Source: a virus | Lineage: Duplodnaviria > Caudoviricetes | IMG/VR virus record: IMGVR_UViG_3300013426_000026 | Location: 39,395-103,394 of that record | Direction: 5' to 3' (one strand) | Length of the DNA: 64,000 nucleotides | Part shown: positions 24,872 through 61,300 of the stretch, piece after piece | How the letters are laid out: each line of letters opens with the position of its first letter | Numbering within the stretch: the stretch's first letter is position 1 | Notes under the pieces: model-generated | Seen by the model: the letters and a program-made list of their open reading frames with translations, nothing else | Databases searched by the model: none | Told to the model about the DNA's origin: nothing | Program-made: the position numbers and the translations under genes

Positions 24872-25279
24872 ATGACAGTAGAATTAATAGCTCAAATTTT
24901 TGAACTTTGTGTTATTCCTTTATTAGGAATTTTAACAACATTTGTTATTACTTGGCTTAATTCTAAAAAAGAAGCTTTAAAGCAATAGACAAGTAATCAA
25001 TTAGAACAAAAGTATTTAGATATGCTTGATAAAACCATTACTGATTGTGTTATCGCTATGAACTAGACTTATGTTAATTCTTTAAAACAATAGGGCAAGT
25101 TTGATGCCGAAGCGTAGAAGAAAGCTTTTACTGAAGTTTATAATAAAGTATTAGCTATCCTTGGTGATGAAGCTATCAATTATTTAAATACTTCTCTTGG
25201 TGATTTAAATGAATATATTAATTCTAAAATCGAAAAAGAAGTTAGTTCTAATAAAATTTCAAAAGAAACTGAAAAATAA
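24872..25279 (+). CDS. holin, LL-H-like (135 aa, TAG=Gln)
   Basis: Single N-terminal TM (IFELCVIPLLGILTTFVITWL) followed by DCVIAMNQTYVNSLKQQGKFDAEAQKKAF...INSKIEKEV. Confidence 0.7.
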
Positions 25280-26153: not shown

Positions 26154-27244
26154 ATGTTCAATGCAAGTAATGGTTATAGTTTATCTGATATTGCCGCAGC
26201 GACAGGCGGTAATGGATACCGTAATGGTGATGATGGTATGTGGGGTAATGGTGCATGGTAAGGTAAAATCTGCCATGGATAAATCGCGGAATTAAGCGGG
26301 AAAGCTGAAATGCTAATCCGAACCGAAGGCTAGATTAAATTTAGTCAGGGGCAACGCATAGATGGTGAAAAGATATAATCCATCCACGAGGCCGCGACAT
26401 TTATTTAATAAATGAAAAGATATGCTGAACTAATACGAATAAGTAAGTATTAGAACTATAAGACAAAAAACTTATAGGATAACATAATGGGATAATTATT
26501 TTATTCCTTTTCTGCTTCAATGGTTGGGGCGGAAATGGCTGGGGTAATGGCGCCAACGGCGCTGGTTATCAGGGAACTACAACAAGAGAAGAATTAACCT
26601 ATGGTTTTGATATGAGTGATATCAAGTCCGGTATTAATTCTTTACAGACCGGTTTATGTAATGGCTTTGCTGGTGTTAATAATAATTTATTAACTGGTTT
26701 TGCGGGCATTACCGAAACCTTAAATGGCAATGCACGTAGCTTGCAATCTGATATCTGCAATATGGGCATGACTAATATGCAGAATACATTTGGCATTACG
26801 CAGGCTATTAATGCTGATACGATTGCTAATATGCAAAATACAAATGCTCTTTCTCAACAGCTAAATAATATGGCTGCGACAAATGCCTAGTGCTGTTGTG
26901 AGAACAGAAATCTTATTACGTCAAGCTTTGCAGATTTAAATTATAATCTTGCTACTGAAGCTTGTCAGAATCGTCAGGCAGTTAACCAGGGTGTGCGCGA
27001 TATTATTGATAATACTAATGCAAGTATGCGCTCTATCCTTGATTTCCTTGTCCAGGATAAAATTGATACTCTTACCGCTGAAAATACTAGTCTTAAGGGT
27101 CAGATTTCTCAGAACTTACAGAATGCTTATTTGATAGAACAACTTTCTCCTAAAGCACAACCTGCTTATATTGTTGCCAACCCTTATACTGGTAATACCT
27201 ATACTACTTATGGCTGTGGATACGGCTGTGGATGCAATTCTTAA
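26154..27244 (+). CDS. cassette gene 3, Gly-rich/TM N-terminus plus long coiled coil with Cys clusters (286 aa), split by a group I intron
   Basis: Exons 26154-26259 and 26490-27244. Splicing gives ...GMWGNGAW-WIIILFLFCFNGWGGNGWGNG...NAQCCCENR...YGCGYGCGCNS; AAGGAGG RBS. Confidence 0.8.
26260..26489 (+). mobile_element. ORF-less group I intron (230 nt) with variant P7
   Basis: Exon ends in U with P1 CAUGGU/GCCAUG; terminal G at 26489; P3 TCGCGG (26284-89)/CCGCGA (26392-97); P7 GCATA (26356-60)/TATGC (26421-25) preceded by AAGA; P8 and P9 hairpins. Removal restores the frame and removes a TAA. Confidence 0.8.
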
Positions 27245-28335: not shown

Positions 28336-28735
28336 AGTTATGCGTTACTTGATTAGTATATTTTTGTACTATTAGCGCAAACAACTAATCTCCCTAATGA
28401 TTTCCGCCTAAGCCATTATATGCTTCATGGTCGGCGTCTATATCACTATATTCATCAGGAGTTATAACATGATCAGTTTCTAATAATCTATAGCAATCAG
28501 CTATAAATTTAGGTCTTTGTAAAGAAAGTAAACCTTTTTTCAAAGACTATATTTCTTCTTCTTGCTAATCATGCTTTGTTTGCACTTCTTCTTGTAATTT
28601 TCTTATTTCAGCCTTTTGGTTTTCGGCATATTCATTTTTAACTAAATTAAAAAATCTTTTTAAAAACCAACTAAAAGCACCAATTACAATACCAAATAAT
28701 ATTTCTAACCAATACTGTAGGATAAATTCTAACAT
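28334..28735 (-). CDS. holin-like membrane protein (133 aa, TAG=Gln)
   Basis: MLEFILQYWLEILFGIVIGAFSWFL (TM), coiled coil, then HEAYNGLGGNHQGDQL; the YxxLGGN motif is common in Firmicute phage lysis-region proteins; GGAGG RBS. Confidence 0.6.
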
Positions 28736-28821
28736 TTATATAATTCCTCCAATATTTGTCGCTCTTTCTCATTATTATTAAAGAAAGAAATTATATAATT
28801 ATAAGGTTCCGCCCAAAGAAT

Positions 28822-29328
28822 TTATTCCCAATTTAATTCTTCTTTGTTAGATTTAAAATAGGCGGAATATAAACAAATTGCATCGCATACATCGTCATTG
28901 GCCTCTATTCCATAAGTATCTTTTACATACTAAATATCAAGCGGTTTGAGCTTTTCGCGTCTAACGCCACGTCCAGTTTTTATACCAAGCTAATGGCGCC
29001 ATTCGCTAGCCTACATAAACTCAATACTTTTGGAATTAATTTTATTATTTACAGAATGAGCGCCAAGGACAACTGACCCCTGAAGCCACATAAGTAAACG
29101 TGCTGTGTCTGAATATCCATATGCTTCTGGATGAACATCTTCGGCTATTAATTTTTCTATTTTATATTCTTTAATTAAATCTATAAGTTTACTCTATATT
29201 TTTTGAATACGAGCAACATTATTTTCTGAAGAAGCGGTAATTAATCCATAAGTAATTAAATTACCTTTATCATCGGAAATTGCATAACCTGTGGATTTTG
29301 TTGATAAATCTAAAAATAAAAAATTCAT
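28822..29328 (-). CDS. ruvC: RuvC-like Holliday junction resolvase (168 aa, TAG=Gln)
   Basis: FLDLSTKSTGYAI, LIAEDV, SEWRHQLGI, NDDVCDAICL acidic motifs; 4 in-frame TAG. Confidence 0.75.
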
Positions 29329-32351: not shown

Positions 32352-35300
32352 TTATAAATGGCATACCCTATCTCTTATTTCATTAGTTCGGCCGTGATTC
32401 CAAAATTGAGAACCGATATCTTTGACACCCTCGGTTTCCCGATATTTATTAGGGGAATAGACTATACAATATTTATTATTATTATTATTATTTGTGGCAA
32501 AATTGTCCTTTGTTATTTCTAGCTTTATTTCCATTAGTGAATCCATACAATAGATTATCTTTATGAGACATCCATTCTAAATTATTTAAATTATTATTTT
32601 TAGGATTATTATCCTTATGATTTACATCAGATAGATGCTCTGGATTTGAGATAAACATTTCAGCTATAATTCTATGAATATAAACATCTTCTCGTTCGTT
32701 AGTGCTGTCGCATCTCATGTAAATTCGAGCATATCCGGTTTTTGTATATCTAGGAGTTAATTCTTTTGGGGATATCCATTTCGATTTGTCAAAACGATTT
32801 CGACATCCTTTGGGAATTACAGAGTATATTTTTCCATCTTTACTAATTTTATATCCTGTAAAATCTGGAATATCATACAGTTTTTCCATAATTATTATCT
32901 CCTTTCTTTATTTTTAATAATAATAATAATAATAAATTCCCTATTATAGTCGTTGAACGTTCCTCCGGCCTGGAGGCTTCGCTGCGTTTGATTGCCCAAT
33001 CTCAAATGATTTTACTATACCGTTTCCGTTGCTAAACGCCATTTATATATTCCTATATAAATTTAGTTATTTGAGCTTAAGGGGTTCCCCGCAATTTAAG
33101 GGATTTAGTGTGGACAATATCGTTTATCCACAGGTTCTGCGTGCAACATTAAGTGTTTCATGGTCTCGATTACCACAATTAGGGCAATACCATTTGAGAT
33201 TATCATCTATTAAAATTTCTCCATCGTAGCCACATTTTTGGCAATAATCAGATTTAGTATTTAATTCAGCATACATGATATGATTATAAATAAATTGCAT
33301 TACAGTTTCTACGGCCTCAATATTATTCTGAAGATTAGGAGTCTCAATATAACTAATTGCACCACCAGGACTCAATGCTTGGAATTCAGCTTCAAGAGCC
33401 AATTTATTAAAAGCATCAATTTCTTCAAATACTGGGACATGGTAACTATTTGTAATGTAATCTCTATCTTTGCCATCAAGTTTTATAAAAATATCTTTCC
33501 CGAAACGTTTTTTAAGGCAAGTGGCAAATTTATATGTTGTACTTTCAATTGGAGAACCATAGACGCTATAAGAAATATCCTCTTCGGCACGCCATTGTGA
33601 GCAAGCATCATTTAAGTGTTGCATAACTTTAAGGCCAAACTCTTTCCCACCTTTAGTATGACTTTCTCCAGTCATATATTTAACACATTCATAAAGCGCT
33701 GCATAACCAAGAGATAAAGTAGAATAATTATTATGCAATAATTTGTGAATACTTTCTCCTTGATTTAATCTGGCCAAAGCGCCGTAACGCCACAATATAG
33801 GTGAAACATCGGCAGTTGCGTGGCTTAATCTTTCATGCCTTGCTTGTAAAGCTCGATGGCATAATTCAAGACGTTCATCAAATAATTGCCAGAATTTTTC
33901 AAAATCTTTATTGGAACTAAAAGCGATATCAGCAAGATTAATGGTGACCACTCCCTAGTTGAAGCGGCCATAATATTTGTGACTAATAGGGTCGGGCGTG
34001 AGGAAACTTCTACACATATTAATCCAATATTGCTATTGGGACTGACTATATCTTCTATCTTAAAATTAAGATAGTCTTCCGCTTCGGTTTTCAGTTGCTT
34101 CGTTTCCTAAAACAACGGTGGTGCTTATCTCCACCCCTACTCCCATACATTCATCAGGGATAGTCGATACACTTTAATTCAAAATTTCAATTTTATATTG
34201 GTTTTTAATAATAAAATATGGCTCTTCCTTATGTTTATAGGCTTTTCCGCTAAAAGTTTTTTCTGATAGTTGAAAATATCGTTCGGCTTCAGCGTAGCTA
34301 TTAAATTTGTATATAGTATTATCTAATAAATTTGTTACCTATATTTTTCTTGCTCGAGCATTATTTTTATTCACACTATATTCTGGATAGTTCTCATTAG
34401 CATAAGCAATTTGCCACTATTTACGATATAGACATTTTGTTTGTCCTAAGCAACGTCGTGTAATAAAATTATGATTCGTTTCATTAAAAAAAGCCTGCAT
34501 CTCAGATATAGAATCAAAATAGTATTCTTCATCTGTATTGATATTTCTACATTTAACGGCCGTTGCCTATGGATTTTTACCCGCTTTTTTACTGCTTGAA
34601 ATTTTTTGTTTAATTTCTTTTAATTCGTTAGAAGTTTTGTATTTATAAGTATTACCGCCACTTTTAAGGCAAGAATCTGTCTCATTATAACCCATTTCTA
34701 TTGAATTATAAAAATGAATCCAATAAACTTCTTTTTGATTGAGTTCCTCTTGTGTTTCAGCGCGGTCTATTTCTATAACAGTAAAATTATTTGGGCCATA
34801 TTTACGAATTGCTCTTGCTAAATGGGTATCAATCCTATTATTAATTGTATCATAAATATGTCGCTAAAATCTTTCTTCTATTGTTTTAGAAGTTTGACCA
34901 ATATAAATTTTTTGATTTATCTAATTTGTAATTTTATATACTAGCATTTTTCTCACCTTTATATTAATGTGAGAAAGGGTCTAGTTAATTTAATTAAAAT
35001 AGTCCAAGAAATTTTAAATTCTTAGCACGGTCTCATCCTAACAGTAGGACCTAACCGTTGGCCTATTAAATTATTAATAGACACCCGCGAGCGCGGTTCA
35101 AAAGATTTTACATGAGCTGTAGTTTACGCTTACCCATGCATGGATAAACATCACCTTTTAATTCCTTCATTATTTTTTCAGAAATATAATCAGGTACCAA
35201 GCGTTTTGCCGTACATTTAGCGGCCAGCTCTGTTAAATACCAATATTTACCATTTGGAGTAATATTATCTTCTTCAAGAACATAAAGCAATTTGGGGAAA

Positions 35301-36967: not shown

Positions 36968-39900
36968 CTTCGGCCACTCCTTGATATCGTTCACTTCTTA
37001 ATAGTAAATCTCCATTTGGTTTAATTTCATCAATATGATACAATTGATGTCCAATTGTAGAAGCATATTTTTTAGGAATGAAATCATCGCCTGAACGAAT
37101 ACCTTGAACTACAATCATATTACCACGATTAAACCAAGATTTTTCCATAATTTTTTTAGTCCCATCTGGTTGTTTTTGCGATATTTGCTTATCAAATAAA
37201 CTAAAATATTCTTTTCTAAATTTTATATTAACAACTCCAGTTGGAGTTAATATTGTGACCATACTTTTATTTTTATTCTTGGCGATACAAGTTCCGCAAA
37301 TTTTAGATAAATAATAAATATTAATAGTTTTACCTGCCTTTGTAAAACTACGTTCTATTCTAGGCTCTTCCGGTAATTGATTAAAATCAACATACCCATA
37401 TTTTTTACTATTAATATTAGCTAATTCATGTTCGTGATAATAGAAACATAATACTTCCATTTCCCAAGCTGAGTAATTATTTTTAGAACAATATTTATTC
37501 CAATCATCTTTAAAAATTAAAGTATTTAATTTATTCAAAATTTCTTGCTTATTTTCAGCTATTTGCGCGCGATATACATCCATCCATTTATCATAGACTT
37601 TATTTTTCCATGCCTCAGTTGACATTAAATAATTAACTCTATCATTATAAATTAAATCATCTTTATCAATTTTTTGCAAGAAATTAATTGCGCGTTCATC
37701 TAATTTATAATCCGCTTTAGTATATTTACATACTGTTTTTAAGTACCGAGTAAATTCATAAATATGTAAAGCTTGTTCTCTTTCTTTTGTATCTGCTGGA
37801 AGTAAATTAAATTTCATTAATGTTGCAAGATTTTGAAGATTAAGATTGGATTTTTTATCACAAGTTTCCCAAATATACCAAGCCATACAAAGTTTTCTAT
37901 CCATCATATTATCAAAAGCTCCACCCTTAATAAGTGAAATCATAGCTTGCTTATTAGGTTTTACTTTCAATAAAAATTCCTTTAAATTCTTATAAGGACG
38001 ATGTTCAATAATTGATTTAACTACATCATCACCGACATTAAGTATACCTTTTAATCCAAAAAGGATTTGATTATTTTCCGTATCAGGAATAAAACTAAAG
38101 TCTGATTTATTGATATCAGCTAAACTAATTTTTATACCGGCTTGACGAATATCTCCAATGGCCTTGGCAATTTTTCCATAATCGGTAGAATTAGTTTTTC
38201 TTATTTTTGTTTTTTTATCAGGTAAGTCTTTAAAAGTAACTCCATTAATTAAATCATCATTTTCTGGTTCATAGATATCTACAATTTCTTCTTCACTATT
38301 GTCTTCCAGAGAGCCACTATTGACAATCAAGCAAGCGCAATTCCAATAAATAGGATTATAATGAATAACAAAATAAATCATTTGAATAGCAACAAATGAA
38401 TAAGGAAGTGAATGATTAAGAGAGAAGGCATAACCTAGCTGGGGAGCAATAGCTGTTTCCCAAAAATATTCTGCGTCATTTTTATTATTGAAACGACTAA
38501 ATACTTGTTCTTTTAATTGAGGAATTTTAGCCATTTGTTTTTTTGCTACTACTTTACGAGCGGAATTAGCTTCTCCTAATGTAAAATGAGCTATATCCAT
38601 AAGAATTTCCATCATTTGTTCTTGTAAAGGACAACAACCATAATATTTATCACAGTGTTTATGAAATTTATCAATAAGTTCTTGAGGTAAATGATGTTGT
38701 TTCATTTCTTGATCAAAGGCTTGAATACCTTGGTGTTGAATTCGATAAAATCTATCTTGCTGTGATTCTTTACCTTTTTCTGACGTAAGACGCATCATAG
38801 CATTAGCTGCTGTCATTTCCATAGGGTCTTGCGGTTTTAGTTTTTTGGCGATGGCTAACCCTACACCAGTAGAAAACTGGAAACAGTCTAATACATCTCC
38901 GGTGGCTAAATGATCCCAAATTTTTTGGTCTGTAGTATCTATTACTTCTGGATGAATATATTGATTATAAAAATCTCTTAAAGATAAGTCAGGAATTTCT
39001 TTAGCTTTTAATAATAATTCATAACAAGTAATAATTTTATCAGAAGCTTCAGTTACAAGAAAATCATATTTTGTATCGCCCGCACTTTCTGCCTGATGGA
39101 GGTCCCAACATGTAATCAAGCTACCACTGGGCGTGCGCATAAAACTAGCAGTTTCATATGGATCATCATCATAAAGAATGACTCCAGAAGCATGCGATGA
39201 ACGTTTATTAACAATGCCACCGATATAAATAATTATATCAAGTAATCCGGGATATTCATTTACTTTATTTAAAAAAGTCTTAACAGGTTTTCTATCTTTA
39301 GCTTCATTGCCATAAATAACATCATTAATTTCCCATAAAAATCCACGCTCTTGCGGGATAAGAGAAGACATATATTGCGCTTCATCTACGTCAATACCAT
39401 TTGGATATTCATCTGACCTATAACCGCGACAAGCAGTAAGAATAGCAGACTTAGTAGTTTCAGTGCCAAAGGTAGCAACCTGAATTAATCCTAATTCTCC
39501 ACGTTCTTTGCGAATAGCTTCAAAAATTGCAGGACGTTTTGAAGGAGCTAAGTCAATATCAATGTCCGTTTTTATTGGACTATATTTTTTACGATAATTT
39601 ACTGAGAGCATTTTAATTCAATTATCGCTAGAACATCTTTCAGATGGTGCTTATCTCCATCTTACATAATAGTCTCTACACATTTAATCTTCCGATTTTT
39701 AGCACGGTATTATCAATCTATCCATTCTCAGGACATAGACTCTCTTAGTCAGTTGATTCGTTCTTAAAATTAATTAAGACTTATTTCGCTGATACCGTTA
39801 GCCTGCATTAAGCAGACACCCATTAAGCAATGGTTAATGTTCTTTTTTTACAACTGCCCAACATCAATATTAGACTAGGCAGTTCGGCTCTCTCTTTATT

Positions 39901-47284: not shown

Positions 47285-49126
47285 TTAAAAAGCGCTATCT
47301 TCAGCAATTCTAATTTTTACATTTTCCATATCAATTAATTCATAACTCCAATTAGTGCAAAACATTGGAATTATACGACAACACCCCAAATCGGCTTTAC
47401 ACCATAAATAAATACCTTTATATTTACCTCGGCGGTTTTTATATACTGATAATTTAATTGTAGGTTTATCAAAAGTATTACTTTCTAATACCTTTTGCAA
47501 AGCTTCATAATCATTGTCTCTGGCTTGAAGCAAAATCATACCTACATCAACTTTCCTTTATACCTTATATTTCTATAAGGAGTAGACTATATCTTTACCA
47601 TGCTCTATGTGAGTTTAGGTAGACCGTACTTCGCTTTCGCTACTCCGCGCAACCGGATAGTCGTTGAACCTTCCTCTATTTGAGGCTCGGCTGCGAGGTT
47701 GCCCAATCTACTTAATTTTTATAACATTCACATTTAAGCTTATTTCATCTTTATGCTGTAGTTTAAGTAGCTCTAAGGGTTTTCCCGCAATTCTCGGTCT
47801 GATAATCACTTGGAATTTCTTCCAAGGACGACATAATCTTATGATAAAAATACATAAGACCAAATCTGCTATACTCTTCGCACCTCTCAAAAGATTTTGA
47901 TCTGGTGTTTCGCTATACTAATAGTCCGCATTTAATTGCGTTGCTGACATAATAAATATGCCATATTGATTACATATATCTTTTAAACGAGTAGAAAGCA
48001 TAAAAAGAATATTATCTTCTCTTAGTTTTACACCGCCACTACGTTTACTAATTTCTTCTAGAATTTTCATGCTTGTATGTATATAATCATGAACCACATA
48101 CTTTATACCATGATCACGAATATTTTTTTTAATAATATTTTCAACGTCTTGAAGAGAAAAATCAGGTAGCTCAACTATATATAAATTAGCTTTTCTTAAA
48201 ATTTGACCGGCTTCTCTAACTCGGGTTAATTCATCATTTTGATATTGTCCATTTAATATATGGTCTTCATTTACATTTGAAAGAAAAGCTAGCATCATAG
48301 TCTGAATTTCATCTTTAGTTTGCTCTGTAGAAATAAAAAGAACCGGTTCACAGCCTCCACCGGATTTAATCCAACCAATACCATCTTGATAATACTTTTC
48401 ACAAGACAAATAACAAGCATCAGCTATCATTGTTCTCGACTTGCCTACTCCAGAAGCGGCCGAACGTAAATAAAATTTTCTTAATCTAGCACCACGTGTA
48501 ACTGTATTAATCAATGGCCCAAACAAGGGTGCGCCAATTTCTGGATGTTCCAAAAGGTCATCAATCAAGTCATCAATATCATTACCAGCTTGATAAGCAT
48601 CGCCTTCAACATTAGAAATATATTGATATTTAATTTCTTCAATTTTATCATCAATTCTTTGTGCAATACGCTCAAGGGAGGCATTATCTAACCATTCTTC
48701 TTGTAATTGGTGCTTTTTAGTGTCTAAAATATTATCAGGATCGAAAATATCTTCTACATTGATACCAAATTTATCATACGCGCGCAATAAAGACATCTTC
48801 TTCAAACGACTATAATAATAATCAAAGGTAGATAAATTACTATGAGCACTTGCTTCTGTAATCCATTTATCACCTTTCTGAGAGACATAAATAGCTTGAT
48901 ACTTTGGTCTGGTACTTAAAAAATCATTTATTGCATCAAGAGTAATACTTTCCGCGCCGAGTTCATGTAATTTATATATCGAACCATAAACAACTTTATG
49001 AAATTCATTATCAAAATCGTCTTCGGTAATAGTATATTTATCAGTATAATCTAAAAGCTTTGGATTATTGAAAACACATCCAATAGTCTAAATAATAGCG
49101 GTGGGGTCTACATAGCGAGATGCCAT
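47285..49126 (-). CDS. dnaB: replicative DnaB-like helicase, 2 exons
   Basis: Exons 49126-47864 and 47554-47285. SAASGVGKSR, ISTEQ, HDYIH, SATQLN, LRGAKSIAD|KVDVGMIL, YKNRRG. Confidence 0.9.
47555..47863 (-). mobile_element. ORF-less group I intron in dnaB (309 nt)
   Basis: Exon ends GAU and the intron ends in G; CAACGACTA and AAGATATAGTC; removal restores SIADKVD. Confidence 0.88.
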
Positions 49127-58371: not shown

Positions 58372-61300
58372 TGTCATTTGCCTCCTCGCTGTGCATTAAT
58401 AAATATTCTCTTCTAGGCGGAACGTTTGGGCCTAAAAGCATTTCAATTAAATTTTCAGTAGATTTTTTGTCCTCAATTACTAATTTAGCAATATTTCTAG
58501 TTTCAGGATTTAGTAAAGCTTCGGCTAATTCATCGGGGTCTTGTTCTCCTAAGCCTTTATTTCTGTTGATTAAAAAAGTTTCACCCTTATGCAATTCTTT
58601 ATACTTTTCCAATTCAATTGCATCTTTAATAAAAATATATTGATTCTTTTTAGTAGTAATTCTAAATAATGGTGGCATAGTCGTATATAAATGACCATTT
58701 TCAATTAATTCGGGACATAACCACCAAAACATTTCAATAAGTAAATTTCTGATATTTGCCCCATCCGGATCCGTCCTATCCCATATTTCTATGGGGACTG
58801 ACTATATCTTACTTAATAATTTTATTATTAAGGATACCATTTCGAGCTACGTGCCAATTAGTAGCCCTACTCTCCCGTTTCGGAGATAGTCGATACAGGT
58901 TTACCATTTAATTCCCAACGTTTTAAGGTTTTTTTATAAACAGGAACATCATTATAATAGCTATTTTGACGAACATCTCCCATTAATATCTTTTGAAATG
59001 TTCGCTGAGTAAAAATCTACCCTTTTTCATTAACTAATTTTTCATAAACTTCTGAATAAGTGTGATTAATATAATATTTTCTATATTCTAGTAGTTCTTC
59101 TTTAGTTATAAAGATATTTTCTAAATTAATTCCACTTTTATAAAAATTTTTATTTTCCTCGGTATAAACTTCTGGCATTATATATTTCCAGCTATATCCT
59201 TGCCATACTCCTTGGAATGCTGATTTAGTAATTTTGTCTTTAAAATAAGTTTCATAAATTTGCTTTTGAGATTTATGTTCCGCATAACTTTGTCGTATAA
59301 ATTCTACATCTTTTTCAGTAAGTAATGCTCTACCATTACCTTCCCCTTTAGAATTATTATATCCACCAAGTTGATTATTATACCCATTTTCTTTTGAATT
59401 ATATTTTTTAATATAATCTTGTTCTTTTTGATCTAAATCGTCTAAGGAACATTCTTCTAAAATTTCAAAATCAAACTAATCAACACCCAAAACATTTATA
59501 TAATCATCAATAGTTAATGACCGATTTTTTTTATGTTCATTAAAACGTCTTTCTATATCGTTGCTCTAACCAATATAAACTTTTCCATTATTTTTATTAG
59601 TTATTTTATATATCCCAATCATTATTATTCTCCTTTTATAAAATAATATGTTGAGATTAAATGGTCTTTCCCACGGGATTACCTTCAACTTTATTTGGTC
59701 AGGTTTCCCCGTTAGCAAAATTTCATTCCGTCTCACTCTATATGCAAATATGACCAAGACGGTTAATGAATTTTACCCAAGTGGCGAACTTGAAAAGTAT
59801 TACACAGCCAATATTACTTAGCATCGGCGGCGAGAAGTATCTTACCATAACGTAATTTTTTCTTGTCATAGATTAGTTTATTAGTTTTACTATCTAATTC
59901 TAGACCAATAGCTTTAATAAGATTAACTACTTCTTGATTAGCAAAAATTTTCTCGCTACTATTTTTATAACTTGAGATAATTTTACCTCTAACTGGAAAA
60001 ATAGCAATATGTTCTGCGTCCCGAGCTTCTACAAGACCTCCGGCAGCACTATCCGTTAATTCTTATATTTCTATAAGCACTGACTATCTCTTCACTCCAA
60101 TTTGTCAAATCATCATCGTGTCCTCTATTTTGAAATGCGTATCAATAGCATTTCTACTCCCGGTCTAACCCAGGATAGTCGATACAGCTTATTTTATATC
60201 TTTATAGGTAATTCTAGTAATGACATTATATACAGTAGACCAAGCTTTTTCTGGAGCATATTTTAACCAAACTTGTTTTGGAGTCATACCATTATCATAT
60301 TCTTTTCTCATTAAAATAACTTCTTCTTTAGTAAAGCTACGTTTATTATTAGAGGCTATTTCAGATGGATTTGCTTTAGCCTAATGAGAATGCCAATATT
60401 TATTTTCTTCAGTATGATATTCTGGATATATATTTTTCCAAGTATCAAACCACCAAATTTTTTGAAGTCCTCTTTTACTAATTTTATTCTAATACTCTTG
60501 ATAAATAGTTTTAAATGGAATATGAGCATTATAGCATTCTCTTATATATTTAACATCTTCCTCATCTAATAAAGCTCGACCATTTTTACTACCCATCCTT
60601 GTTCGGCCTGGAATTTCATCTCCTCCAGGGGTAGCATTATACCCATTAGTGTATGAGTTATAATATTTAATGAAAAATTTTTCAAGATTATTTAGTATTT
60701 CTTTACTATATTCATCTTGAGTTAATTCAGCTATTATTTCATAATCAAAATTTTCAAAACCATATTTTCTTATGGCTTGATGAAATTGACTATTATAATC
60801 ATTAGCCTATTTGTTATAAGCTGCTGATTTATGGCCGTATTGTCTTCGTTCAAGATTAATACTCTGACCTATATAACTTTTTCCATTAATTTTATTAGTA
60901 TATTTATAGATACCTATCATTTCACTCTCTCCTTTCATAATCTTTTGAGGGAGATTGTGTATTCTTTATTTAGTTTTGACCTATTTTTTTTTGATATAAA
61001 ATCTTGCCACGGGATTGACTTCACCTAAACATATTTTGACATATATGTGTAATGGTCAGCTTTCCCCGTTAGCCTATAAATAAATTATAGACCCCCTTGA
61101 TATAGGGTAAAAAGGATTAGGGCAATAGTTTACGCCTACCCTCAACAATAAACAATTCGCACTTACTTCTATCTTTACTCCAACAATCAACAAGTTTACT
61201 GGGAAGATTTAAGAATTGTTTTTTCTTTTCTTTTGGTTGTCTGACAGCTTCTCTGGCTTTACGTGCAGCTTCTCTTGCGCGACGTGCATTAAGAGCTTTA

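What the first reader, a model, noticed from the sequence alone, without database searches (positions are those of the whole stretch)
26260..26489. Minimal group I intron with non-canonical, covaried P7 in an uncharacterised membrane-protein gene
Seen: a 230-nt ORF-less insert with P1 (U-G splice pair), P3, a P7.1-type insertion, P8, P9 and a terminal G. Its P7 is GCAUA/UAUGC, whereas the other six introns here have the canonical GACUA/UAGUC. The G-C pair of the guanosine-binding site and the bulged C (CAAC-GCAUA) are retained. Unspliced mRNA stops at TGG-TAA right before the TM segment. Established: phage group I introns mostly sit in conserved DNA-metabolism, terminase or lysis genes. Inference: a divergent subfamily that standard covariance models may miss. 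Its presence implies the WW-IIILF site is highly conserved, and splicing could gate the cassette.
Basis: partly seen in the sequence, partly recalled or inferred. Interest (0 to 1): 0.7.

Follow-up and report, generated by a model that had tools for sequence, protein, structure and literature searches.

The report
ORF-less group I intron, variant P7
A 230-base self-splicing-type (group I) intron really does split a conserved phage membrane-protein gene between two invariant tryptophan codons; it belongs to a very common phage and Bacillota intron family that the standard Rfam model misses, so the biology is ordinary but the annotation gap is real.

Summary
Window 26260-26489 (+) is an ORF-less 230-nt insert. 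Removing it joins GCATGGT|GGATAATT and restores ...GNGAW-W-IIILFLF..., exactly as in hundreds of uninterrupted homologues and in intron-less DNA (L002).

The insert has every sequence-level hallmark of a group I intron:
- P1 with a U.G pair at the 5' splice site
- P10
- P3, P4, P5, P6/P6a
- a P7 pseudoknot with the G-C pair and a bulged C
- P7.1, P8, P9, P9.1
- a terminal G

All helices are backed by compensatory changes in 60 relatives: 95.9% of cells are paired, against 74% when shuffled. P7 = GCAUA/UAUGC is correct. Within the same family it covaries with GCGUA/UACGC and with the canonical GACUA/UAGUC.

The intron is not a rarity. Its 16-nt core occurs in more than 104 IMG/VR stretches and many Bacillaceae genomes, in nrdE, terminase, capsid, tape-measure, topoisomerase and RNA-polymerase genes. 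Same-site relatives carry HNH homing endonucleases.

Rfam RF00028 reached threshold on 0 of 20 members, while it found neighbouring canonical introns in the same loci. A model built without the window scores it 216 bits.

Nothing supports a "splicing gates the lysis cassette" role, because close relatives lack the intron. Splicing itself was not tested.

Verdict: a new member of a known kind, of low to moderate interest.

The parts
26154..26259 (+). Exon 1 of the membrane-protein gene (35 codons plus the first base of Trp36). Unspliced, it stops at TAA formed across the 5' splice site.
   Evidence: homologues
26260..26489 (+). ORF-less group I intron, 230 nt, IA2-like, without P2
26254..26277 (+). 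P1: exon CAUGGU (26254-59) pairs with the guide GCCAUG (26272-77); U26259.G26272 lies at the 5' splice site
   Evidence: the guide covaries with the exon in 10 same-site introns
26268..26271 (+). P10 half of the guide (AUCU), pairing with the 3' exon GGAU at 26490-26493
   Evidence: P10 is 4-8 bp and covaries (GGAU/AUCU, GGUU/AACU, GGAUCAUC/GAUGAUUU)
26284..26351 (+). P3 5' strand (26284-89), J3/4 AAUUAAG, P4 (26297-300/26317-20), P5 (26303-05/26312-14), P6 (26323-24/26350-51), P6a hairpin (26328-35/26339-46)
26352..26360 (+). J6/7 CAAC with bulged C26355, then the P7 5' strand GCAUA (26356-60); G26356 belongs to the presumed guanosine-binding G-C pair
26361..26384 (+). P7.1 hairpin (GAUGG/CCAUC) with the conserved loop UGAAAAGAUAUAAU
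   Evidence: 4 of its 5 pairs show compensatory changes
26392..26414 (+). P3 3' strand CCGCGA (26392-97) and the P8 hairpin (26398-402/26410-14)
26415..26426 (+). J8/7 AAAAGA, the P7 3' strand UAUGC (26421-25) and U26426, which closes P7 with A26354
26432..26489 (+). P9 (26432-36/26447-51), P9.1 (26456-62/26471-77), the tail GAUAACAUAAUG and the terminal (omega) G26489
26490..27247 (+). Exon 2: the last two bases of Trp36, the transmembrane segment IIILFLFCF, a Gly/Trp/Asn-rich linker, a long helical region with a CCC motif and a Cys-rich tail; it contains one TAG read as Gln

Best explanation
Window 26260-26489 is a genuine ORF-less group I intron of the phage IA2-like type. After transcription the RNA folds into the usual two-domain core: P4-P6, and P3-P7-P8-P9 with a P7.1 hairpin.

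Its internal guide (26268-26277) pairs with the last six exon bases to form P1, with a U.G pair at the cut, and with the first four bases of exon 2 to form P10. A free guanosine bound at the G26356-C26425 pair of P7 attacks after U26259. The terminal G26489 then takes its place and the exons are ligated. This rebuilds Trp36 and yields a 286-aa membrane-anchored protein.

The intron is a selfish element, the endonuclease-free form of a mobile intron that occupies this same site in related phages with an HNH homing endonuclease. The P7 sequence GCAUA/UAUGC is the hallmark of a large, conserved intron family. It is a compensated variant of GACUA/UAGUC, not a defect.

Shown here: the exact insert, the restored frame, all helices with covariation, and family membership. 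Inferred: that the RNA actually self-splices, and that it uses guanosine.
For: - Uninterrupted homologues and intron-less DNA define the junction exactly.
- RNAalifold on 60 relatives recovers P3, P4, P5, P6, P6a, P7.1, P8, P9 and P9.1 without guidance, with compensatory changes in 37 of 45 pairs.
- With the P7 pseudoknot added, 95.9% of cells are paired, against 74% in shuffles and 32-42% when partners are slid. Forty of 51 pairs show double changes.
- P7 is paired in 60 of 60 sequences. It covaries at three positions, and the wider tally agrees: CAAC|GCAUA-UAUGC-U 108, CAGA|GCAUA-UAUGC-C 33, GCGUA-UACGC 5, GACUA-UAGUC 2.
- P1 and P10 track exon changes in 10 introns at this same site, and all end in G.
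- The leave-out model scores 216.5 bits, E 2.7e-52.
- Same-site relatives carry HNH_3 / I-HmuI-like ORFs.
- Against L001, the intron differs at 4 of 230 bases. All four lie in P6a: three are stem changes that keep the pairing and one is in the loop. The exons differ at 70 of 864.
- Intron-dense crAss-like phages and about 206-nt phage introns with splicing seen in metatranscriptomes are already published (PMC7886860, PMC12880540).
Against: - No RNA data or splicing assay exists for this locus.
- Rfam RF00028 gives no match even at E<=10.
- The pair next to the guanosine-binding pair is C-G here instead of A-U in the RF00028 consensus. Its effect on catalysis is unknown.
- P6 (2 bp) and part of P7 are invariant in my sample, partly because the search patterns fixed them, so those pairs carry no covariation signal.
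Confidence: 0.92

Rival explanations
1. The intron also works as a regulatory gate. Unspliced mRNA stops before the transmembrane segment, so the rate of splicing would time production of the membrane protein and of the neighbouring lysis-type genes.
For: Unspliced RNA ends at UGG-UAA just before the transmembrane segment. A holin-family gene lies about 900 bp upstream (PHROG 13712).
Against: Of the 45 homologous loci where both exons were found, 34 have no intron here, including relatives at 87% protein identity. The same intron family sits in unrelated genes such as nrdE, terL, capsid and topoisomerase genes. Same-site copies carry homing endonucleases. No sensor domain or extra conserved element was found in the 230 nt.
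Confidence: 0.04
2. The insert is a decayed, splicing-dead intron remnant, and the membrane-protein gene is a pseudogene in this phage.
For: It lacks a homing endonuclease and P2, and it is not recognised by RF00028.
Against: Every core helix is intact, and it scores 216-222 bits against the family model, among the best members. Both exons are open and conserved. A related phage (L001) keeps the same intron with only compensatory stem changes plus one loop change.
Confidence: 0.04
3. The GCAUA/UAUGC family is a functionally distinct subclass. The changed pair next to the guanosine site would alter cofactor affinity or specificity, or create a need for a protein helper.
For: The P7 variant is nearly fixed across hundreds of copies. 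Among ten classical intron-bearing phages the best family-model scores are only about 32 bits, for Twort and PH15. The P7.1 loop repeats the J8/7 motif UGAAAAGAUAU.
Against: Members with GACUA/UAGUC and GCGUA/UACGC share the same scaffold, which suggests neutral compensated drift. The G-C pair and the bulged base are retained. No experiment addresses this.
Confidence: 0.08

Closest known systems
Subgroup IA2 phage group I introns, e.g. Staphylococcus phage Twort orf142 introns and the PH15 lysin intron
   Same: Same order of helices, with a P7.1 hairpin between P7 and P3', P9 plus P9.1, a GAUAACA..G type 3' tail, a J6/7 ending in CAAC, small size, and a location in a phage protein-coding gene. 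Twort and PH15 give the only significant family-model hits among ten classical phages (32.2 and 31.8 bits).
   Different: Only distant: about 32 bits against 100-220 bits for true family members. From my memory of the published Twort sequence (not checked here), its P7 is the canonical GACUA/UAGUC; here it is GCAUA/UAUGC. The window copy has no P2 and no P7.2.
Group I introns of intron-dense crAss-like phages (Delta/Zeta groups; Yutin et al. 2021, PMC7886860) and the roughly 206-nt introns of gut Jug phages (PMC12880540)
   Same: Gut phage with TAG recoding of late genes, many introns per genome, and short ORF-less forms. For Jug phages, splicing was seen in metatranscriptomes.
   Different: The crAss-like phage introns were found through endonuclease domains (Yutin et al.) and the Jug phage introns through subtype covariance models. 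This particular gene, site and P7 variant are not mentioned in the passages I read. I could not run the subtype models.
Bacillus cereus-group chromosomal and prophage group I introns (nrdE, nrdF, tape measure, terminase; Tourasse and Kolsto 2008, PMC2504315)
   Same: Same kinds of host genes as other members of this family (nrdE, tape measure, terminase). HEG loss leaves small ORF-less introns, and P1 adapts to new homing sites.
   Different: I could not check whether any of the published B. cereus introns belongs to this exact family. SPbeta, whose introns are their listed relatives, has no member.
Rfam RF00028 Intron_gpI
   Same: Same RNA class. RF00028 finds one canonical intron in this window (47563-47857, 66 bits).
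   Different: No hit on this intron at E<=10. 0 of 20 family members reach the 50-bit threshold.

Membership tests
Group I intron | P1 helix between the 5' exon end and an internal guide, with a U.G pair at the 5' splice site | tested here: met
   CAUGGU/GCCAUG with U26259.G26272. The guide covaries with the exon in 10 same-site introns.
Group I intron | P10 pairing of the guide with the 3' exon, and a terminal (omega) G | tested here: met
   GGAU/AUCU, with covariation up to 8 bp in L025. The last base is G in all 10 same-site introns.
Group I intron | Conserved core helices P3, P4, P5, P6, P8 and P9 in the canonical order, supported by covariation | tested here: met
   The RNAalifold consensus has 37 of 45 pairs compensatory. 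95.9% of cells are paired against 74% in shuffles.
Group I intron | P7 pseudoknot across P3, carrying the guanosine-binding G-C pair next to a bulged nucleotide | tested here: met
   G26356-C25425 equivalent pair G26356-C26425 is invariant in 60 of 60. The bulge is C (50) or A (10). P7 is 100% paired with three covarying positions.
Group I intron | Guanosine- and Mg-dependent self-splicing that ligates the exons | not testable with these tools
   No RNA data. Only the frame-restoring junction is shown.
Subgroup IA2 (Michel-Westhof / GISSD) | Extra P7.1 (and P7.2) helices between P7 and P3', plus a P9.1 extension | tested here: inconclusive
   P7.1 and P9.1 are present and covary. P7.2 is absent in this copy but present as an optional hairpin in other members. 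Subtype covariance models are not available here.
Rfam RF00028 (curated model membership) | Score at or above the 50-bit gathering threshold | tested here: not met
   No match at E<=10 in a 2-kb search. This reflects the model's limits, not the RNA class: 0 of 20 relatives pass while neighbouring canonical introns score 73-117 bits.
GCAUA-P7 phage/Bacillota intron family (defined here, models R1 and R2) | Full-length match to a family covariance model built without the query | tested here: met
   216.5 bits, E 2.7e-52, covering model positions 1-212.

The most novel reading that the evidence does not exclude
The GCAUA/UAUGC-P7 introns form an unrecognised, very abundant subclass of IA-type group I introns. 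They would have a changed base triple next to the guanosine pocket (C-G instead of A-U) and a conserved P7.1 loop that repeats the J8/7 motif. Current Rfam-based annotation overlooks them systematically in phages from Bacteroidota, Bacillota and Proteobacteria hosts. Their altered pocket could give different cofactor kinetics.
Probability: 0.12. Interest if true: 0.55.

Novelty: new member of a known kind. Interest (0 to 1): 0.3.

Why it matters
The practical value is for annotation. This gene is called as a 35-aa stub plus a 210-aa fragment, and the same happens wherever this intron family sits: capsid, terminase, tape-measure, nrdE, topoisomerase and RNA-polymerase genes of cultured and uncultured phages. 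RF00028 does not see the family, so a dedicated covariance model such as the one built here would repair many split phage genes. It also gives a clean natural example of compensated change in the helix that holds the guanosine site. Finally, it shows a homing site inside a transmembrane-segment codon pair (WW) rather than in an enzyme active site. It does not change what is known about how group I introns work.

Tried and rejected
- Rfam on the window at gathering and at E-value thresholds gave no hit on the insert.
- An alternative P7 using the AAGAUAUAAUC motif at 26370-26380 was rejected. Its would-be partner GAUUA lies in the variable P6a stem, the helix order would be violated, and the motif turns out to be the conserved P7.1 loop.
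- I looked for a characterised family member in ten classical intron-bearing phages: T4, SPO1, SPbeta, Twort, K, K1E, PH15, Tuc2009, phiKZ and 0305phi8-36. There were none, only about 32-bit distant hits in Twort and PH15.
- For the host protein's function, Pfam, PHROGs and the ESM Atlas gave only 'unknown'. The AlphaFold model had pLDDT 50.7, too poor for a fold search, so none was run.
- Literature searches for the phiR1-37 topoisomerase intron and for P7 variants found nothing specific.
- I could not link the family to the published B. cereus introns, because their sequences are not at hand.
- A first intron comparison with L001 was off by one base and was redone.

Full report
**What is there.**
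The plus strand of the first 28 kb of the window carries late phage genes that need TAG read as Gln. One small ORF (26154-26261) reads MFNASNGYSLSDIAAATGGNGYRNGDDGMWGNGAW and stops at TAA. From 26492 the frame IIILFLFCFNGWGG... is open to 27244. It overlaps the 210-aa ORF that gene callers report. If 26260-26489 is removed, T26259 joins G26490 and G26491 to make a Trp codon, and the two parts are in frame.

**The insert is real and its ends are exact.**
A search with exon 2 found more than 5000 relatives. The best full-length ones (283-298 aa) read ...GNGAWWIIILFLFCFNGW... straight through. In an alignment of 20 diverse homologues W35, W36, I37, L40, F41, L42 and F43 are invariant.

Among 80 related viral loci, most have exon 1 directly abutting exon 2. 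L002 reads GCATGGTGGATAATT at the DNA level. L001 has the same 230-nt insert. L025, at only 60% protein identity, has a homologous 236-nt insert at the same phase.

**It is a group I intron.**
By eye the insert has all of the following:
- P1 (CAUGGU/GCCAUG, with U.G at the splice site)
- P10 (GGAU/AUCU)
- P3 and the J3/4 strand AAUUAAG
- P4, P5, P6/P6a
- J6/7 CAAC
- P7 GCAUA, then P7.1
- P3', P8 and J8/7 AAAAGA
- P7' UAUGC
- P9, P9.1 and a terminal G

The strand folds better than its shuffles (z = -3.6).

The decisive evidence is comparative. The 16-mer CAGGGGCAACGCATAG occurs in more than 104 IMG/VR stretches, and a second core 15-mer in 114. I aligned 60 ORF-less relatives.

RNAalifold, which knows nothing of group I introns, returned P3, P4, P5, P6, P6a, P7.1, P8, P9 and P9.1. 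Compensatory changes were present in 37 of 45 pairs. I then counted pairs with the P7 pseudoknot added:

| Measure | Value |
|---|---|
| Cells paired, real alignment | 95.9% |
| Cells paired, column shuffles | 74.0% (0 of 500 shuffles reach the real value) |
| Cells paired, partners slid | 32-42% |
| Pairs with double changes | 40 of 51 |

At this very insertion site, ten introns show the guide sequence changing with the exons:
- For P1: GCUUGGU with GCCAAG, GCAUGGU with GCCAUG.
- For P10: GGAU/AUCU, GGUU/AACU, GGGUUAU/AUAACUU, GGAUCAUC/GAUGAUUU.

All ten end in G.

A covariance model built without the window sequence or its closest kin scores 26281-26489 at 216.5 bits (E 2.7e-52). It hits nothing else in the window.

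**The P7 question.**
In the 60-sequence alignment P7 is paired in every sequence and the G-C pair is invariant. The closing pair is A-U (50 sequences, bulged C) or G-C (10 sequences, bulged A). The two inner pairs vary in a compensated way.

Over 206 sites the tally is:

| J6/7 end and P7 5' strand | P7 3' strand and next base | Count |
|---|---|---|
| CAAC, GCAUA | UAUGC-U | 108 |
| CAGA, GCAUA | UAUGC-C | 33 |
| CAAC, GCGUA | UACGC-U | 5 |
| CAGA, GACUA | UAGUC-C | 2 |

So the canonical and the variant P7 coexist on one scaffold. This is direct evidence that GCAUA/UAUGC is a compensated variant of GACUA/UAGUC. One caveat: the first search pattern contained the 5' strand, so its near-fixation is partly by construction. 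The second pattern did not contain it.

**Rfam.**
RF00028 finds one canonical intron in the window (47563-47857, 66 bits). It finds nothing at the insert, even at E<=10 in a 2-kb search. On 20 family members in all, none reaches 50 bits, and two have weak overlapping hits of 19-25 bits. In the same loci RF00028 scores neighbouring canonical introns at 73-117 bits.

That a single Rfam model does not capture group I diversity is already stated in the literature (PMC6125680). Subtype models exist, but I could not run them.

**How common, and where.**
- The family model hits at least 45 of 80 bacterial loci that carry the 16-mer. They are mostly Bacillaceae, but also Clostridium, Gemella, Lachnospiraceae, Lutibacter and others.
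- There the intron splits nrdE, tape-measure, terminase and lysin-type genes.
- In cultured or named phages it lies, unannotated, in these genes:
  - the RNA polymerase gene of Aeromonas phage AhC3_1 (139 bits)
  - the topoisomerase II gene of Yersinia phage phiR1-37 (127 bits)
  - the capsid genes of crAssphage cr128_1 and bajarodcaudo virus 1
  - the tape-measure gene of C. difficile phage phiCD211, right next to an annotated Intron_gpI feature
  - the terminase regions of Listeria phage LIS04 and Exiguobacterium phage vB_EauM-23
- Ten classical intron-bearing phages have no member. Twort and PH15 give distant hits of about 32 bits, which points to an IA2-like kinship.
- This phage record (103 kb, estimated 56% complete) has only this one strong copy.

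**Mobile or regulatory?**
Same-site introns of 740-800 nt in other phages carry HNH_3 / I-HmuI-like endonuclease ORFs. The ORF sits in the P8 loop in L105 and L174, and in the P7.1 region in L100. The window's copy is therefore the endonuclease-free form.

Between the window and L001 the intron differs at 4 of 230 bases. All four lie in the P6a hairpin: the three stem changes keep pairing (A-U to G-C, G.U to G-C) and the fourth is in the loop. The exons differ at 70 of 864 bases. This fits selection on the RNA fold, recent lateral spread, or both.

Of the 45 homologous loci where both exons were detected, 34 lack the intron. A built-in role in timing lysis is therefore unlikely, and nothing in the 230 nt looks like a sensor.

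**The host gene.**
No Pfam, PHROG or Atlas annotation goes beyond 'unknown'. The AlphaFold model is poor (pLDDT 50.7). It predicts a short N-terminal part, one membrane helix (35-45) and a long helical region (77-254). A holin-family gene lies upstream at 24872-25279. I leave the function open.

**Known context.**
Intron-dense crAss-like phages with recoded late genes are described (PMC7886860). So are gut jumbo phages with thousands of roughly 206-nt group I introns whose splicing is seen in RNA (PMC12880540). HEG loss and adaptation of P1 to new sites in Bacillus prophage introns are described too (PMC2504315).

**Verdict.**
This is a correct and careful observation of an ordinary kind of element. 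The part worth keeping is that a very abundant intron family with a compensated P7 is invisible to RF00028. Self-splicing remains untested.

Noticed in passing
window 32480-33140, 33934-34354, 39468-39888, 47563-47857, 58690-59110, 59972-60392 (all minus strand): Six further group I introns with the canonical GACUA/UAGUC P7, several with endonuclease ORFs. Only the one at 47563-47857 reaches the RF00028 threshold (66 bits).
   Followed up: partly
L032:1417-2489 (also L033, L069): The same membrane-protein gene has a second intron site in other phages, at the invariant QCCC motif. A roughly 1.07-kb insert there holds a related group I core (R1 76 bits; RF00028 45.6 bits, below threshold).
   Followed up: partly
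L105:7855-8418, L174:5459-5932, L100:873-1358 (minus strand): Same-site introns carry HNH_3 / I-HmuI-like endonuclease ORFs in two different loops: P8 in L105 and L174, the P7.1 region in L100. This suggests independent endonuclease-gene gains.
   Followed up: partly
window 26366-26376 and 26413-26423: The 11-mer UGAAAAGAUAU occurs twice in the intron, once in the P7.1 loop and once as the end of P8 plus J8/7 plus the start of P7'. Both copies are conserved across the family. The meaning is unknown.
   Followed up: no
L417:1327-1577 (Clostridium phage phiCD211, NC_029048 about 28617-28867): An unannotated family member (98 bits) sits directly upstream of the record's annotated Intron_gpI feature inside the split tape-measure gene, so two introns lie in tandem.
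   Followed up: partly
window 1-28300 (+) versus 28300-64000 (-): Late plus-strand genes need TAG=Gln (up to 95 TAG codons in one 3127-aa ORF), while minus-strand genes have few. No suppressor tRNA was found in the window.
   Followed up: no
L097:2780-3845 and L143:638-1704: Three group I introns lie within about 1 kb. One is of the GCAUA family and two are of canonical type, which shows how densely these phage genes are invaded.
   Followed up: no
G000:C1:22355-22528 (outside the window): A weak family-model hit (20.6 bits, E 8e-4) lies elsewhere in the same phage record, probably a distantly related intron in the packaging region.
   Followed up: no
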